From: Armatimonadota bacterium
Lineage (GTDB): Bacteria; Armatimonadota; Hebobacteria; CAIYQO01
NCBI GenBank assembly: GCA_038248345.1
Contig: JBBRXO010000032.1
Span: forward strand, 1 to 24,567
Length of the DNA stretch: 24,567 bases
Reading direction: 5' to 3'
Made by a program: the position numbers. Positions 12,001-18,000 of the stretch are shown here, one piece after another (the first letter of the stretch is position 1; every line of letters begins with the position of its first letter).

Positions 12001-15000
12001 ATTGATGCCAGTTTGTGCAATGGCTGTGGATTGTGTATAAGTTCCTGCGCCGAGGGGGCGATTCAGCTGGTGGATGGGGTGGCGAAGCTGGTGAAGGATG
12101 ACTATTGCGACGGGCTGGGCGCGTGCCTGGGCGAGTGCCCGCAGGGGGCGATAACCGTCATCGAGCGCGAGGCGGCGGAGTTTGACGAAGCGGCCACCGA
12201 GAAGCATCTGGAGAATATCGGGCGCAAACCCGCGCCGGGCGCCGCCCCCGCCCACCACGCCGGGTGCCCGGGGATGGCGATGCGGCAGTTTGACGCCCCG
12301 GCGACGACCAAACCGATGGGTGACGCACCATCGGCACTGCGGCAGTGGCCGGTGCAGCTGCACCTGGTCTCCCCCACCGCGCCGTACTTCCGCGATGCCG
12401 ACCTGCTGCTGGCAGCGGACTGCGCCGCCTTCGCCCACGGGGGCTTCCACGGCCAGTTCCTCGCCGACCACGCACTGGCGATAGCCTGCCCGAAGCTGGA
12501 CGACACCGGCGAATACGCCGAGAAACTCGCGACCATGATCACCGCCGGCGGGGTGAAATCCATCACCGTGGTGATGATGCAGGTGCCCTGTTGCCGTGGC
12601 CTCATGAGTCTGGCAGAACAAGCCTTCGCCCGCGCCGGCAAGCGCGTACCGCTGCGCCAGGTGATTATCGGCATCGAGGGAGAGGTGTTATCGGATAGTG
12701 GGATGGAGAATGGACGAGGATAACCACAGAGGGCACAGAGGGCACAGAGAGAGGGAAAATATTAGCACAGCGGGCACGGTGGGCACAGAGAAAGTAGAGA
12801 AATGTGGATATCCCTGGGAACGCAGGCGTCTCGCCTGCTCTTAGCATGGGCGTCTCGACCATGAGAACGGGGTTTCAATTCAGAGCCTCATATTTCCGCT
12901 GGGATTGAAATCCCGGCTGCAGGGCGCTACGCGCCGGTCGTCCGCCTTCGCGGACTTTTCGGAATCGAATGGTAGCGCCCTTTAGGGTGCTTGCAGTTGT
13001 TAGCCACCTCCTTTAGGGGTGGTGTGGGGAATCCTACCTGCTCCGTGTTCTCTGTGCCCTCTGTGTTAATATATTTTCTCTCTTCGTGCCTTCGTGGTTA
13101 TTCTTGTTCCATGCTATGGGGCAGGCGGGACGCCTGCGTGCCCAGGGATACGCGCCTCTACCGCCTCCAGCCACACCCTACCCTTTTCCCCACGCGGGGT
13201 GATGGTTAGTTTGCGCTCGTCGCTTTCACCGCGGTATTCCAGCAGGATTTCTACGCCATCGGGGAAGTAGCCGGGGGGGAGGCGCTCGCCCCATTCGATG
13301 ACGGTGACGCCGTCGCCCTCCAGGTAGTCCTCCACGCCCAGCTCCTCGGCGGCGGAGCCCTCCAGGCGATAGAGGTCGATGTGGTAGACCGGCAGGCGTC
13401 CGCCGGTGTACTCGTGGATGAGCGCGAAGCTGGGCGAGGAGACGGGGTCGGCACAGCGCAGCCCGGCGGCCACGCCGTTGGTCAGCTCGGTCTTGCCCGC
13501 TCCCAGGTCGCCGCGCAGCCAGAGCACCGCCCCTGCCGTCGCACACTCCGCTAACATTTGCCCCACCGCACGCGTTTGTGCGGCATCAGTCGTTATCAGT
13601 TCCATGGTTGATAAATTCGGTAATAGCCGGATTATCTCCTGCTAGCTCGACAATTATCCTCCGGGAGGAGCGTTGGGAGGGGAATAGTGGGCCGATGATA
13701 AGGAAAAGTGCCCCACCATATAGACCCGAACGCCGATACCCGTTATCATAGTCAGGATGGGTGAGATTATCGGTTATTTGCTGGTGACAGTCATTACCTT
13801 CGTGCTGGGGATCGTGGGCACGCGGGGGGTGATGCGCGCGTTCTCGGAGTTCCGCTCGCGCGAGGTAAAGGCGGGCAAGGAGCAGGTTTACCGGCATTAT
13901 CCGCGGCAGAAGAAGCCGCTGGGTGGCGGCATCGCCATCTTCGCCGCCCTGACAGCCGGTGTGCTCATCACCTGGGTGCTCGATAAATTCAGATTCTTCG
14001 GTTCGGATCTCGACGGGTACTGGGGGAGCATCTGGCTTTTCCTTTTTTGCGGGTTGGCATACGGGCTTATTGGGCTGTATGATGACTGGCGCAAAGTAAA
14101 CGCCGCCCGCGGGTTGGATGAGCGGGCCAAGATTATCTTGCAATTGATCCTCGCCTTCTTTTTCACCGCTGCTATCGTTAATCTGCGCCACACTGATCCA
14201 CAACAGGCCATCAGTGTGTTTATCCCCTTTGGTGGCTGGGTCACCTTCTATAAATTTCTCTTTTTGCCCTTCGGTATGTTTGTGCTGGTGGGGATGTCCA
14301 ATGCGGTGAACCTCACCGACGGTCTTGATGGCCTGGCGGGAAGCAGTCTGGCGCTCTCATTTATTGGCTACCTGCTGCTGGCGGCGGTGATAAAATCGGA
14401 TGGTATCCCGGTGGTTCTTCCGCTGCTGGCATTGGCGGGGGTGAGTGGATTCCTCATCTATAACCGTCCACCGGCGCAGATTATCATGGGTGATACGGGG
14501 GCATTGGGGTTGGGGGCGGCGCTGGGAGCGCTCGCCTTGCTTTCCCGTACTGAGTGGCTACTCATCCTTTTCGCCGCGCCTTTTGTCATCGACACTGTTT
14601 CCGTGATGATTCAGGTGGGGGTGATCAAATTCTTCCGCGGCCCGGTGAAATTATTGCGGCACCAGACCACCGAAATCTTCCGCCCCTTCCTCTGTACCCC
14701 ATTGCACCATCACTTCCAGTGGCTTAATTGGACGCCGTGGTCTATCCTCGGGCTATTTTGCGGGGTCAGCTTCTTCAGCATTGCACTGGGGATATTCGCT
14801 GCCCCCGCTGCACTGCCGGGTGGTGCGGTGGGTTACGGCTGGCTCTGGTTCCTGGGGATATTTCTGCAGTGCAGCTTCCTGTTGCTGGCGGCATTGCAGA
14901 AGATCATCCGAGCTAACTACTTCCTCGGGCTAGAGCCGCCACCGGACGGGGGCGAGCGGGTGCTGTCGCTTTACAAAGGCTTGCCGATCATCTTCTTCGG

Positions 15001-18000
15001 GGCGCGTGGCTATAGCGTGGAAGAGCGCACGGTAATCAGTGAGGGGATGGTGAATACTATCGCGGCCGAGAGCATCCTCTGGCGTAATGTGAGTGAGATC
15101 GAGGCGCGTGCCACCCTGGGGAAGATCTACGCCGAATATAAGATGACGGACGCTGCGGCAACGGAGTGGGAGCAGATACCAGTGCGTAACCTGCTCATCC
15201 GGGAGAACGTGGTAGTGCAACTGGGCAAGATCTACTTCACCCGCGATGAGTTGTTGCGCGCCATCATACTGTGGGAGCAACTGCCACCCGTGCATCTGGC
15301 GCATCTGGCCGGACTCACGGATACAATCCGCGGAGCGAAGGTGCGCATCGGGCACCTGGCGGGCCGCCTGCACCAGCAGGCGCAAGAGCATATTCGACAA
15401 TTGAACCGCCGCGCGCGCGAGCATGGGTTGCCCGTATCCTCGGCTGAGATTACCATGCTGCAGCATGAAGTCGAAGGGGCGCTCCGCTACAACCAGGAGC
15501 TGCGCGACCTGCTGACATATGAGCATAACAAGACCGAGGGAAGCGCAGAACCGCAGACACTGGCGATAGTGCAGGCGACGGATTTGTACCGCCGCATGGA
15601 TGTCACGTTAAGCACCCGTATTGACGAACTGCGGCAGGCGTTGCTCTGGGCGAACACGGTTGTTACCCCGCAAGAGGTGGAACAGATATCGCCGGAGCTG
15701 GCGGCATTAGCCGATGATCTGCAGATGAAACCGCTGGAAATAAGCCGTGCGCTGGAGGCTACCGGCATGTTGCGCATCAAGGAATATGCCCGTATCGAGA
15801 AGCCGTCGCGCAATTCGCTCTTCCGCATCACGCTGGAGCGCAAAGTCGGTCGCTTGCCTTCGTCCATCATCGCCAAGTGTTTTTTGGATAGCAAAGTCAC
15901 TTTTTTCAGTGCCTGCTATCGGCGCGAATTCGGCGTGCTTACACTGCTGCAGGAGGCGTTAGCCCCCTCGCCACACCTGCTGGGTGGGTATCTGGGTAAT
16001 GATCATGCCGTGCTCTTTCTGGAGGATGTCGCCGGGCAGGATTTGAACACTCTGCTGCGCACGCTGAAGGATAACCGGCTGGCACGACAGGAGTGTCTGC
16101 GCCGGGCGTTGGAATCGCTGGTACAGCTTCGGGTAAACACTTTCCCATTCCAGGCGCGGCTGGAGCGCGAAATAAGCCGGATCGTCAAAGAGGTGCTCAC
16201 GCCGGAATATTACCTCAACAGCACCGTCATCGCCTTCAATCGCATCCTGGCGTTGGAGAAGCGCACCCTTACCGGGGCGGAAAAAACACAGTTGGAGACA
16301 GCGCTGCAGCCGGTAATCAAAGTGCTGCAGGCGGAGCCGAAAATATTCATCCACTTTGAATACACCCCCGGCAACCTGCAGTACATAGGCCAGCGCACGG
16401 TGGCCATCGACTTCGAGCAGGCGACCATGGGGCCGGCGGCCTTCGACCTCGCCAGCCTGCTGTATGCACCGGAATCCAACATGAGCGAGAAGCAGATCAA
16501 CGAGTTACTCGTCAGTTACCACGAGATGCTCCCCGCCAACCTGCCCGATGGTTTTAATGTTAGTGAGGCGACACTGGAAGCGGCGGCCCTGATCAAACTC
16601 TTCTTCTACGCCGGTTCTGCTGCTAACTTCTACCGCAAATTCGAAGACGGCGCCCGGCTGGAAGCGATGGAGTGGTATCTGCAAACCGCCGAAAAGATCC
16701 TCGCCCACTATCCCGAATACACCGAGCTAGCCCGCGCCCTGCGTACCTGCTGGACCGGACAACGGCATTTGGCGGTGTAGACGAAGGGGGGATGGGTTTA
16801 TTTAATGAAGTCATGAATTCGAAAAGCCGATCCCGGCTTGCGCTACAATCCAAGGTAATTATCTGTCCTAACGCGGGCTGCGCCTGCAACCCAAAGTAAT
16901 TATCTTTACTGCAATAAATCGTGTTACGGCATCCTGCCTTAACGCTTTAATTCACAGGATATAAGGATAGTCAGGATAACAGGTAGCATAATCTTTTTCG
17001 GATAATACTTCCCTACTTGTCTTATCCTCATAATCCTCTATTATCCTTATATCCTGTGAATTACAACGATAGAAGACGACCTCTTTGCACCAGTCTGCAT
17101 TGTAAATGTGCTTTATTCTCTACAAGTTGTTCAGAAAATAACTGAGAAGAGACTATAAGCTATGATAGCATGGGCAGATATAGGAAATAATTATCGAACC
17201 GAATTTAGCACCCTTCAGGGTGCTTGCAGTTGTTAGCCACGTCCTTTAGGGCGTGGTTAAGGAGCGCGGCCCTGCTCTCATAGGCGAGACGCCCAGGCTA
17301 CGAATGGAGCATCCCCGACAAGATCACCGCTGCATCGTGTACGTACATGGCGCAACGGGTGTGGTGCAGGTCTTGCTCGAGGGCTTGCTGGCGGCCTTCC
17401 GGGGTGCTCAGCTCTACTCCCAGCAGGTTCCGGCAATTGATCTCGCCGCGCATTTTGCGGAACTTTTCGATGAACATCGCTGCGGGGGCGTAGCTCTCGG
17501 TCTTTTTTGCCGGGTCGGTAACCGATGCCGCGCCATAGTGTTGGCCAATCACCAGCAGACCGCCAGTCACCGCGCCACACGCTTCACCACAACGTCCCAT
17601 ACCGCCACCCAAGGCCACGGCTAGTTGCAGGCATTGCTCCCGCGACAGTCCCAGTGTTGGGGCAAAAGCGGCAAAAACCGCCTGCGAGCAGTTATATCCT
17701 TCGGCGAAGAGCCTATCCGCCATTTCAACTTCCGTCATAAATCCACCTTCCGCACCAAGTTGATGATCCACACGTAGCGCTATTATATCATTTTGGAGGT
17801 GGAAGTTGCTCGCATGAAATTTTTTTTAGATTTCCATTTTTCCATGGTGAATCCTGGCATAACTGTGGAATATAGACATTGGTGGGGAAGAGAAGAGTCA
17901 TTCCGGAGTGACGAAAGCGTTTCCCATACATTAAAGAAAACGAAGGAGTCCAACCATGAAACAGTTTCTAACCTTACTGGCCGTAGGCGGCCTGCTCGTC

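What a model noticed while it worked through the whole genome (the two positions that open the first line are those of the whole stretch)
13757..16780. MraY paralog fused to TPR-like helices and an APH/AmgK-fold kinase domain
Besides its normal mraY (g00466), the genome encodes a 1007-aa protein: an MraY domain with intact catalytic motifs, a helical repeat region and an APH/choline-kinase-fold domain whose catalytic-loop Asp is replaced by an invariant Glu. It is a conserved, essentially single-copy gene of class Hebobacteria.
Evidence so far: 28 of 31 class genomes, mostly full length; 60 database homologs, named ones Armatimonadota. In 42 aligned: D109, D110, D246, H317-H319 invariant; kinase H866-F-E868 and D885-x-E887 invariant. 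AlphaFold pLDDT 90.6; Foldseek tops are MraY (TM 0.8) and the APH-like 3csv (TM 0.72).
(Added by a program. Inside this text positions count along the whole contig: contig position 1 is position 1 of the stretch shown here. "Call 12" and the like, gene names such as g00115 and contig names such as C1 are that model's own, and its searches are not shown. The text may have been shortened before it was handed on; [...] marks where a part breaks off. The agent that wrote the report below was given it as the finding of a first reader that could run no searches.)

Follow-up and report, generated by a model that had tools for sequence, protein, structure and literature searches.

The report
Second MraY fused to a pseudokinase
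One class of Armatimonadota bacteria carries, beside its normal cell-wall enzyme MraY, a second MraY of an apparently undescribed extended subfamily, fused to a kinase-fold domain that lacks the catalytic aspartate and usually encoded behind an FHA protein; it likely makes lipid I under nucleotide- and phosphorylation-dependent control, since split relatives are the only MraY found in several other Armatimonadota and Chloroflexota genomes.

Summary
The 1007-aa gene is real and under purifying selection. Its kinase half is found in 29 of 31 class genomes, mostly beside a canonical mraY. (1) The neighbourhood is conserved: a Zn-ribbon/Thr/FHA gene abuts it in 17 of 19 genomes of four families, but not in the window's family. 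(2) The parts occur unfused elsewhere. An extended MraY (extra helix, beta-hairpin, TPR-like pair) forms one clade across two other Armatimonadota families and 52 of 301 Chloroflexota genomes. In 16 of 16 such genomes tested, no canonical mraY passes the family cut-off, and in one family mraY is missing from an otherwise intact mur cluster. The kinase-fold partner follows the extended mraY in 14 of 14 Chloroflexota loci that have it. It keeps ATP/Mg-site residues but has Glu, Ser or Gly for the catalytic Asp. Best reading (0.45): a working lipid I synthase with an ATP-binding pseudokinase and a GarA-like FHA switch, convergent with mycobacterial MviN-FhaA. Activity and binding are untested. 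The scan reported this fusion and its FHA partner before on other DNA (four notes); the displayed lines do not mention the split, sole-MraY relatives.

The parts
13757..16780 (+). Whole gene, 1007 aa: extended MraY + stalk + kinase-fold domain
13757..14812 (+). MraY-type membrane domain (residues 1-352): D109, D110, D246, N182/N185/D188/D191, N236, S282, Q286, P315, H317-H319
13850..13876 (+). Loop A signature of the extended subfamily, F-x-S-x-E-x-K-x-G (32-40), in place of the canonical loop
   Evidence: S34 and K38 in 35 of 35 extended rows
14654..14686 (+). Insert before the HHH motif (L300-P310, LRHxTTExxRP); low confidence in the model; T305 invariant in 41 of 41, a candidate phosphosite
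14828..14911 (+). Extra (11th) hydrophobic helix, residues 358-385, predicted to bring the C-terminal half into the cytoplasm
   Evidence: topology inferred from canonical MraY (recalled)
14912..15091 (+). Beta-hairpin domain (386-445, LYxGxP motif), shared by all extended MraYs; no informative fold match
15092..15304 (+). TPR-like helix pairs (446-516); the most conserved region of the fusion (mean identity 0.66 over 446-535)
   Evidence: PF07719 precomputed on P0030 and P0035
15314..15661 (+). Three-helix antiparallel bundle (520-635), stalk; only generic helical-bundle matches (Z up to 10.8)
15692..16756 (+). APH/choline-kinase-fold domain (646-1000): S684-R685-N686, K707, R723-E724 in 41 of 41; D885-x-E887 in 40 of 41
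16352..16375 (+). Catalytic loop H866-F-E868-Y-T-P-G-N873: Glu in place of the Brenner-motif Asp; Asn873 is His in 22 of 41

Best explanation
The protein is likely a working second lipid I synthase, an MraY of an extended subfamily, and its fused kinase-fold domain is predicted to bind ATP/Mg without ordinary phosphotransfer and to act as a regulator, with the small Thr/FHA protein as a likely phosphorylation-controlled switch. Steps: (1) shown: the membrane domain keeps the MraY catalytic and peptide-pocket residues and groups with extended MraYs that are the only MraY found in genomes with mur genes; inferred: it moves phospho-MurNAc-peptide from its UDP donor to the polyprenyl-phosphate carrier. 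(2) Shown: an extra hydrophobic helix, hairpin, TPR-like pair and helical stalk link it to the kinase fold; inferred: that half lies in the cytoplasm beside the active face. (3) Shown: the kinase fold keeps the ATP-site Arg, Lys, Glu and Asp but lacks the catalytic Asp across its clade, and many extended MraYs have no such partner; inferred: it is an accessory nucleotide sensor or scaffold that tunes MraY output. (4) Shown: the partner gene has a complete pThr-binding FHA site and its own acidic Thr motif, its closest relative outside the class lies right behind a PASTA kinase gene, and this genome has a PASTA kinase; inferred: that kinase phosphorylates the Thr (or a Thr of the fusion) and so switches FHA binding to the TPR/stalk region. 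In this class the canonical MraY would carry the basal flux and the fusion a regulated one.
For: Catalytic residues kept: D109/D110/D246 match the DDD motif, Q286 and H317-H319 match Q305 and H324-H326 (roles from PMC6606608). All 35 extended MraY rows form one clade (FastTree SH-like 100; 19 rows at SH-aLRT 99, quick IQ-TREE), apart from WecA. No canonical mraY over the cut-off in 4 of 4 f19 genomes, 2 of 2 f11 genomes at 98% completeness and 10 of 10 Chloroflexota genomes, six of them single-contig. In f11 the cluster reads murE-murF-murD-ftsW-murG-murC-ddl with no mraY (2 of 2). In f19 the extended mraY precedes the only murG found (2 of 2 tested; operon in 6 of 6). In Chloroflexota it follows murE in 5 and lies near murF in 4 of 16 loci. 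Catalytic position: Glu in the fusions, Ser in 16 of 16 f11-type rows, Gly or Ser in Chloroflexota; the Asp is described as essential in PMC3691515. Partner present in only 14 of 46 genomes of one Chloroflexota class, always directly behind the extended mraY, and not found in 5 single-contig genomes with the extended MraY (one weak unrelated-length hit). FHA gene adjacent in 17 of 19 genomes of f2-f5 and 6 of 6 of f19; single copy in 29 of 31 class genomes; pThr-site G82-R83, S97, H100, N119 in 28 of 28, and a Thr in the acidic motif in 28 of 28; pknB-FHA adjacent in 2 of 2 f40 loci; PASTA kinase at G000:C46.
Against: No activity, binding or phosphorylation was measured. The fusion departs from canonical MraY at positions it keeps in f19 and f11: the uracil-stacking Phe is Ile/Leu (11 of 11), E. 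coli E300 is Asn/Asp/Thr, and E329 is Gln (11 of 11). Some sole-MraY Chloroflexota forms also have Ile (5 of 16) or Asp/Asn there, which weakens but does not remove the point. With a canonical MraY present, this copy is free to have changed function. 'Only MraY' rests on profile searches of partly draft genomes; in 3 of the 10 Chloroflexota genomes another weak hit outranks the extended form and was not characterised, and the third f11 genome (G122) is unresolved. Glu, unlike Ser or Gly, could still act as a base, and it is strictly kept here. The FHA gene is unlinked in the window's own family (0 of 7 loci) and no full-length counterpart was found in 5 of 5 f11 and Chloroflexota genomes tested. 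The kinase clade has only moderate support (89-91). 2 of 31 class genomes lack the fusion but have the FHA gene.
Confidence: 0.45

Rival explanations
1. Sensor-kinase: the MraY domain is a damped enzyme that senses UDP-MurNAc-peptide, lipid I or free carrier, and the kinase domain, with Glu as base, phosphorylates the FHA protein's own Thr, as PknG with its TPR domain does to GarA/OdhI.
For: TPR-like region plus kinase fold beside a GarA-like FHA gene. Glu, not Ser/Gly, is kept exactly in the lineage that also has the FHA gene. Class-specific changes in the MraY site. PknG-TPR-OdhI precedent (PMC8546545, passages).
Against: f19 has the FHA gene beside the extended mraY but not this kinase clade. 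f11 and Chloroflexota have the kinase clade without the FHA gene. The FHA relative in f40 sits behind a conventional PASTA kinase. Asn873 is His in 22 of 41.
Confidence: 0.14
2. Salvage feeder: the kinase domain is this class's AmgK, making MurNAc(-peptide)-1-phosphate that a MurU-like enzyme turns into the UDP donor for the fused MraY.
For: Best kinase matches are AmgK models and 3csv. No separate AmgK-like gene in 30 of 31 class genomes, G011 has one extra hit. In f19 the extended mraY operon holds murG, an intact HRD AmgK-like kinase, FemAB and a MurU-like transferase. This genome has a related nucleotidyltransferase at C137 (E 2e-31).
Against: Brenner Asp absent across the clade. The f19 AmgK-like kinases (HRDLHARN, D[FY]QD, QR motif, no beta3 Lys) branch apart (97-99 support) from the MraY-linked clade. 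AmgK score 39 of 550 bits. No murU beside the fusion among the neighbours shared by 3 or more loci.
Confidence: 0.11
3. Atypical chemistry or channelling: the kinase fold uses ATP for something other than phosphotransfer (adenylylation, ligation) or binds the UDP-MurNAc-peptide donor and hands it to the membrane domain.
For: ATP-site residues are strictly kept while the base is lost. The gene lies between extended mraY and murF in Chloroflexota. Kinase-fold proteins with other chemistry are known (SidJ, SelO; PMC12599244).
Against: Absent from most genomes that have the extended MraY (32 of 46 in one class have no hit), so it is not a required step. No positive sign of a particular reaction.
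Confidence: 0.15
4. Different donor: in this class the fusion loads a modified muramyl-peptide or another sugar-phosphate onto the carrier for a separate wall polymer, leaving peptidoglycan to the canonical MraY.
For: Remodelled loop A, insert in loop E, loss of the uracil-stacking Phe and of T75. FemAB beside the f19 form; a GT4 glycosyltransferase directly upstream in the 3 Chloroflexota loci scanned.
Against: The same loop changes occur in forms that are the only MraY found. The MraY-specific S282, Q286 and HHH are kept, and WecA lacks them. The genome has its own WecA-like gene (C35).
Confidence: 0.15

Closest known systems
MraY, phospho-MurNAc-pentapeptide transferase (TIGR00445; PDB 4j72, 5ckr, 6oyh, 9zno, 8g01)
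   Same: Fold (TM-target 0.80), DDD motif, NxxNxxDGxDG, Q305- and HHH-equivalent residues; tree position among MraYs, not WecA.
   Different: Below the family cut-off; new loop A and loop E insert; Phe262 is Ile/Leu; 11th helix and a 620-residue C-terminal half; a second copy beside a canonical one.
Mycobacterial MviN (MurJ) pseudokinase domain with FhaA under PknB (PMC12599244, passages; original work by Gee et al. recalled)
   Same: A membrane enzyme of peptidoglycan precursor handling fused to a kinase-fold domain lacking the catalytic Asp, with an FHA protein and a PASTA kinase at hand.
   Different: Other enzyme (MraY, not the flippase); APH-type, not protein-kinase-type fold; MviN's domain cannot bind ATP, whereas Lys, Glu and the DFG-Asp are kept here; the FHA protein is small and carries its own Thr motif; binding is untested. 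An analogy, not homology.
AmgK anomeric MurNAc/GlcNAc kinase (NF045759, NF045698; 3csv as nearest fold)
   Same: APH/choline-kinase fold; best profile and Foldseek matches among kinases.
   Different: No HxD; has beta3 Lys and RRE; separate clade; no murU next to it; 39 of 550 bits.
GarA/OdhI FHA switch and PknG (PMC12321487, PMC8546545, passages)
   Same: The partner protein is a single FHA domain with an N-terminal acidic Thr motif; the fusion has TPR-like helices and a kinase fold.
   Different: Motif is (D/E)-(D/E)-T-hydrophobic, not ETTS; Zn ribbon; 53 of 200 bits on NF041660; linked to a wall enzyme rather than to 2-oxoglutarate metabolism.

Membership tests
MraY | Score over the TIGR00445 cut-off | tested here: not met
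   169.5 against 192.05 bits
MraY | DDD catalytic motif (Aquifex D117, D118, D265) | tested here: met
   D109, D110, D246 in 41 of 41
MraY | TM9b/loop E peptide pocket (Q305, H324-H326), absent from WecA | tested here: met
   S282, Q286, P315, H317-H319 in 41 of 41; WecA rows lack Q and the third H
MraY | Uridine pocket K70, G194, L195, D196, F262 and adjacent T75, N190, D193, G264 | tested here: inconclusive
   G189, D191, N185, D188, G245 kept, K/R at 50 in 10 of 11; F262 is Ile/Leu and T75 is Leu in 11 of 11
MraY | MraY fold and tree position | tested here: met
MraY | Makes lipid I from UDP-MurNAc-pentapeptide and C55-P | not testable with these tools
   indirect only: relatives are the only MraY found in 16 of 16 genomes tested
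WecA/TagO | WecA-type loop E and tree position | tested here: not met
   TIGR02380 13 of 326 bits
AmgK / APH-type kinases | APH/choline-kinase fold | tested here: met
   PF01636 over the cut-off; 3csv TM-target 0.72
AmgK / APH-type kinases | Brenner motif H-x-D-x-x-x-x-N | tested here: not met
   H-F-E; N is His in 22 of 41
AmgK / APH-type kinases | ATP/Mg residues (Lys44, Glu60, Asp208 of APH(3')-IIIa) | tested here: met
   K707 and E724 in 41 of 41, D885 in 40 of 41; equivalence by motif and model
AmgK / APH-type kinases | AmgK score, clade and murU linkage | tested here: not met
MviN-FhaA-type pseudokinase switch | Pseudokinase fused to a wall-precursor membrane enzyme | tested here: met
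   by sequence definition (catalytic Asp missing)
MviN-FhaA-type pseudokinase switch | ATP pocket blocked, Lys and DFG-Asp lost (ActPs3) | tested here: not met
   K707 and D885 kept against VALT / Y-- in MviN
MviN-FhaA-type pseudokinase switch | Phospho-dependent binding of the FHA protein | not tested
GarA/OdhI (partner gene) | FHA pThr-binding residues | tested here: met
   G82, R83, S97, H100, N119 in 28 of 28
GarA/OdhI (partner gene) | ETTS motif and NF041660 cut-off | tested here: not met
   acidic single-Thr motif instead; 53.4 of 200 bits

The most novel reading that the evidence does not exclude
An old, undescribed branch of MraY with a built-in cytoplasmic docking arm runs peptidoglycan synthesis alone in parts of Chloroflexota and Armatimonadota and takes plug-in regulators: a dedicated ATP-binding APH-fold pseudoenzyme (separate gene or fused) and a self-closing Thr/FHA switch under a PASTA kinase. 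The fusion would be the fully wired form, the first MraY gated directly by nucleotide state and protein phosphorylation, and the kinase fold might carry out chemistry other than phosphotransfer on wall precursors.
Probability: 0.3. Interest if true: 0.88.

Novelty: new variant of a known kind. Interest (0 to 1): 0.72.

Why it matters
MraY commits the lipid carrier to wall synthesis and is a long-sought antibiotic target. The solved MraY chains matched here are bare membrane enzymes of 360-376 residues. A subfamily with a cytoplasmic arm, a dedicated pseudokinase and an FHA switch would show how carrier loading can be gated, and would be a second, independent case of the MviN-FhaA logic at another step of the pathway. 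The split relatives make the question testable: the extended MraY is the only MraY found in single-contig Chloroflexota genomes, and one close homologue is named Ktedonobacterales, a group with cultured members (recalled; I did not check that the cultured strains carry it). It also bears on annotation: these genomes score as lacking mraY at the standard cut-off, which can bias surveys of peptidoglycan genes that use TIGR00445 (used in PMC10608941, methods passage).

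Tried and rejected
Chance or spurious ORF: rejected (conservation, dN/dS 0.04-0.07). Assembly chimera: rejected (full-length in many independent genomes). WecA/TagO: rejected by residues and tree. Direct descent from the f19 AmgK: not supported by the kinase trees. tsaE as a partner: it is divergent next to the gene only in the window among 21 class loci, though tsaE-rimI-tsaD lie divergently one gene upstream of the extended mraY in Chloroflexota (tsaE in 4 of 16 loci); left open. Fold search of residues 384-640: only generic helical bundles, the hairpin barely tested. RNA evidence: no RNA holder was listed. The scan of genome contigs covered 22 of 64 parts and returned six class-type loci plus ordinary mraY genes, so it does not bound the range. 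I first labelled L185 as an extended MraY; the tree showed it is WecA-like and it was relabelled. The careful IQ-TREE run did not finish; supports are from the quick run and FastTree. My motif pattern failed to parse 4 of 14 Chloroflexota kinase-like proteins. Paper searches for the fusion or the extended subfamily found nothing relevant (listings and abstract starts only). A search for the effect of an Asp-to-Glu change in APH gave no such datum; my recollection that D190E cripples APH(3')-IIIa is not used as evidence. The Legionella AmgK preprint passages name no catalytic residue. No supplements were read; bioRxiv supplements are closed and could hold family lists.

Full report
1. The observation. 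The window holds an open frame at 13757-16780 (+) of 1007 residues. Pfam finds the MraY/WecA family at 93-262 and APH at 722-914. NCBIfam gives mraY 169.5 bits (cut-off 192.05) and AmgK 39.4 bits (cut-off 550). The solved-structure search returns five MraY sequences and one weak APH. In 41 aligned homologues, chosen by me from the 60, D109, D110, D246 and H317-H319 are invariant. H866, E868, D885 and E887 are in 40 of 41; the exception, P0060, leaves the frame there. The model has mean pLDDT 89.8 and pTM 0.63, and Foldseek ranks MraY first (TM-target 0.80) and 3csv first among kinases (0.72). Of 31 class genomes, 28 have the gene whole or in large pieces, one has fragments at contig ends and two draft genomes have none. 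A canonical mraY over the cut-off is present in this genome and, at E below 1e-69, in 18 of the 20 class genomes. A crude codon count against the same-genus copy gives dN/dS of 0.05, 0.04, 0.07 and 0.07 for the MraY, hairpin/TPR, bundle and kinase regions.

2. Anatomy. The model shows the MraY helices, one further hydrophobic helix at 358-385, a beta-hairpin domain at 386-445, two short helix pairs at 446-516, a three-helix bundle at 520-635 and the kinase fold from 646. Canonical MraY has both ends outside the cytoplasm (recalled), so the extra helix would bring the C-terminal half inside (inference). The bundle matches only generic helical bundles and the hairpin was barely tested. Against 41 canonical MraY and 10 WecA-like sequences, the fusion keeps the DDD motif, N182, N185, D188, D191, N236, S282, Q286, R309, P315 and HHH. 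[quoted passage not shown] It differs in loop A, in an insert before HHH, and at three otherwise conserved sites: the uracil-stacking Phe (Ile/Leu), E. coli E300 (Asn/Asp/Thr) and E329 (Gln). In the kinase fold S684-R685-N686, K707 and R723-E724 are in 41 of 41. The Brenner motif H-x-D-x-x-x-x-N, whose Asp is described as essential (PMC3691515, passages), reads H-F-E-x-T-P-x-N/H, with His for the Asn in 22 of 41.

3. The neighbourhood is conserved. Among 20 wide loci plus the window, a gene of about 150 residues lies directly upstream on the same strand in 14 of 14 loci of families f2-f5 and in 0 of 7 of the window's family f1. It is a Zn ribbon plus FHA protein, within about 60 bases of the start. 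Coordinates add three more adjacent pairs, giving 17 of 19; in G018 the two genes lie on separate contigs and in G028 the FHA gene was not found. The gene is single-copy in 29 of 31 class genomes; in this genome it is on contig C4. Outside the class its best match falls to E 5e-18. All 28 aligned copies keep the pThr-binding residues and have a Thr in an acidic-Thr-hydrophobic motif ahead of the FHA domain (24 in one column, the four f19 rows one column earlier). This recalls GarA/OdhI, whose N-terminal ETTS motif is the regulatory phosphosite (PMC12321487, passages), but the family cut-off is not met. The nearest relative with all three parts, in family f40, lies directly behind a PASTA Ser/Thr kinase gene in 2 of 2 loci, and this genome has a PASTA kinase on C46.

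4. The parts exist unfused. A search of 401 phylum genomes with the kinase half found strong matches only in the class, but weak ones led to two families. In f19, 6 of 6 genomes have the order acyl-CoA ligase, FHA, extended mraY (about 670 aa, with hairpin, TPR-like pairs and stalk), murG, an AmgK-like kinase with intact HRD, FemAB, and in 5 of 6 a MurU-like transferase. In f11, 2 of 3 genomes have a 480-aa extended mraY followed at once by a kinase-like gene reading H-N-S; the third is unresolved. In neither family does any gene pass the mraY cut-off (3 of 3 and 2 of 2; G070). The f11 mur cluster runs murE-murF-murD-ftsW-murG-murC-ddl without mraY, and the f19 operon holds the only murG found in 2 of 2 genomes. 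A profile of the extra helix, hairpin and first TPR-like pair, run over 1.84 billion proteins, found further MraY-plus-extension proteins, with cluster members named Ktedonobacterales and Chloroflexota. One of them matches 52 of 301 genomes of the phylum of G401, whose record is titled Anaerolineae. In 10 of 10 of these tested, no mraY passes the cut-off; in the six single-contig ones the extended form is the best hit; in three drafts another weak hit, not characterised, ranks above it. murG is present in 5 of 5 tested, 3 over the cut-off. Of 16 loci, 5 follow murE and 4 lie near murF. All extended MraY domains form one clade apart from canonical MraY and WecA (19 of 70 rows, SH-aLRT 99, unfinished careful run replaced by the quick one; 35 of 86 rows, SH-like 100). 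No canonical Chloroflexota MraY was in these trees. They share the loop A signature (S34 and K38 in 35 of 35).

5. The kinase-like partner is a family of its own. In one Chloroflexota class 14 of 46 genomes have it, and in 14 of 14 it lies directly behind the extended mraY as a separate gene. The catalytic position is Gly in 9 and Ser in 1 of the 10 that my pattern parsed; it is Ser in all 16 f11-type rows and Glu in the fusions. The P-loop Arg, beta3 Lys, RRE and D-x-E are kept throughout the rows aligned. These proteins group together (support 89-91) apart from the intact AmgK-like kinases of f19 (97-99). Five single-contig genomes with the extended MraY have no such gene. So the Asp is missing across the clade, three different residues stand in its place, the nucleotide site is kept, and the gene is optional for the extended MraY. 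By the sequence definition in PMC12599244 (first of eight parts and passages) this is a pseudokinase. The class has no separate AmgK over the cut-off (0 of 31).

6. How it most likely works. The membrane domain likely makes lipid I: catalytic residues are kept, and relatives appear to do the job alone. The kinase fold likely binds ATP/Mg and regulates or scaffolds rather than phosphorylates. The FHA protein likely acts as a switch set by a PASTA kinase. It co-occurs with the long TPR-plus-stalk form (this class and f19) and was not found with the short form, which points to that region as its docking site (inference). My odds for the steps are about 0.7, 0.7 and 0.55, and 0.45 for the whole. 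Against it: no activity or binding data; class-specific changes in the MraY site; a strictly kept Glu that might still serve as base; and the loss of linkage in the window's own family. Rivals are a sensor-kinase for the FHA protein on the PknG-OdhI pattern (PMC8546545, passages; 0.14), an AmgK-like salvage feeder (0.11), atypical ATP chemistry or donor channelling (0.15) and a different donor (0.15).

7. Comparison and novelty. It works like MraY but fails the family cut-off and has a changed uridine pocket, so I file it as an extended MraY subfamily, not as plain MraY. It is not WecA and not AmgK. Its logic resembles mycobacterial MviN, whose pseudokinase is phosphorylated by PknB and recruits FhaA to inhibit wall synthesis, but the enzyme, the kinase fold and the retained ATP site differ, so this would be convergence. 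Five full-text searches of the open library found no description of the fusion or of the extended subfamily; subscription papers and supplements were not seen. The scan had noted the fusion and its FHA partner four times on other genomes, after I had found both myself; these are unchecked notes and not counted as support. Verdict: a real, conserved system, a new variant of a known kind; interest 0.72.

Noticed in passing
window 13114-13605 (-): tsaE lies divergently upstream of the fusion only in this window among 21 class loci; tsaE also lies divergently one gene upstream of the extended mraY in 4 of 16 Chloroflexota loci (L356-L358, L360) and follows the FHA relative in f40 (L138, L139). Old linkage or chance.
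   Followed up: partly
L131-L135, L196 (family f19): Conserved operon: acyl-CoA ligase, FHA, extended mraY, murG, intact AmgK-like kinase, FemAB/FemX-like, MurU-like transferase, and in 3 loci a nickel-pincer isomerase (NF052515 over cut-off). It joins salvage, lipid I/II synthesis and stem modification. murA was not found in G044 (93% complete).
   Followed up: partly
L099:8957-9463 (G000:C4): In this genome the FHA partner gene lies directly upstream of ftsE-ftsX; not so in the other f1 loci checked.
   Followed up: partly
G000 C8, C42, C61, C7, C18, C107, C2, C152: The wall-synthesis genes of this genome are scattered: mraY, murE, murF, murD, murG, murC, ddl and ftsZ lie on eight contigs; the canonical mraY sits between rho and a queE-like gene.
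   Followed up: partly
L181-L183 (families f13, f35): These families have a divergent mraY below the TIGR00445 cut-off that still lies between murF and murD and does not belong to the extended clade.
   Followed up: partly
L360:4313-6430 (-): Alanine racemase with an unannotated N-terminal part of about 340 residues (open frame) directly behind extended mraY and the kinase-like gene.
   Followed up: no
P0128, P0122, P0168, L361-L366: One group of Chloroflexota extended MraYs (Ktedonobacterales-like) ends in a long Pro/Ala/Thr/Ser-rich tail in place of the stalk and kinase: candidate phosphorylation tail.
   Followed up: no
L067:16158-17999 (+): WecA-like transferase fused to a WecG/TagA glycosyltransferase, about 6 kb downstream of the fusion in G013.
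   Followed up: no
window 4970-6580 (+): N6/N4 DNA methyltransferase fused to an Mrr-like nuclease-fold domain, lower GC than its surroundings.
   Followed up: no
window 17956-22860 (+): Four same-strand genes, two without a Pfam match and two with Ig/Fn3-like repeats (965 aa): possibly a surface-protein cluster.
   Followed up: no
window 12720-13110 and 17205-17260: The intergenic DNA holds a shared stretch of about 35 bases (about 12985-13020 and 17218-17252) and simple repeats; seen by eye, possibly a small repeated element.
   Followed up: no
G000 C93 and C97: Clusters of Ser/Thr kinase genes (3 on C93, 4 on C97) and of FHA genes (C93).
   Followed up: no
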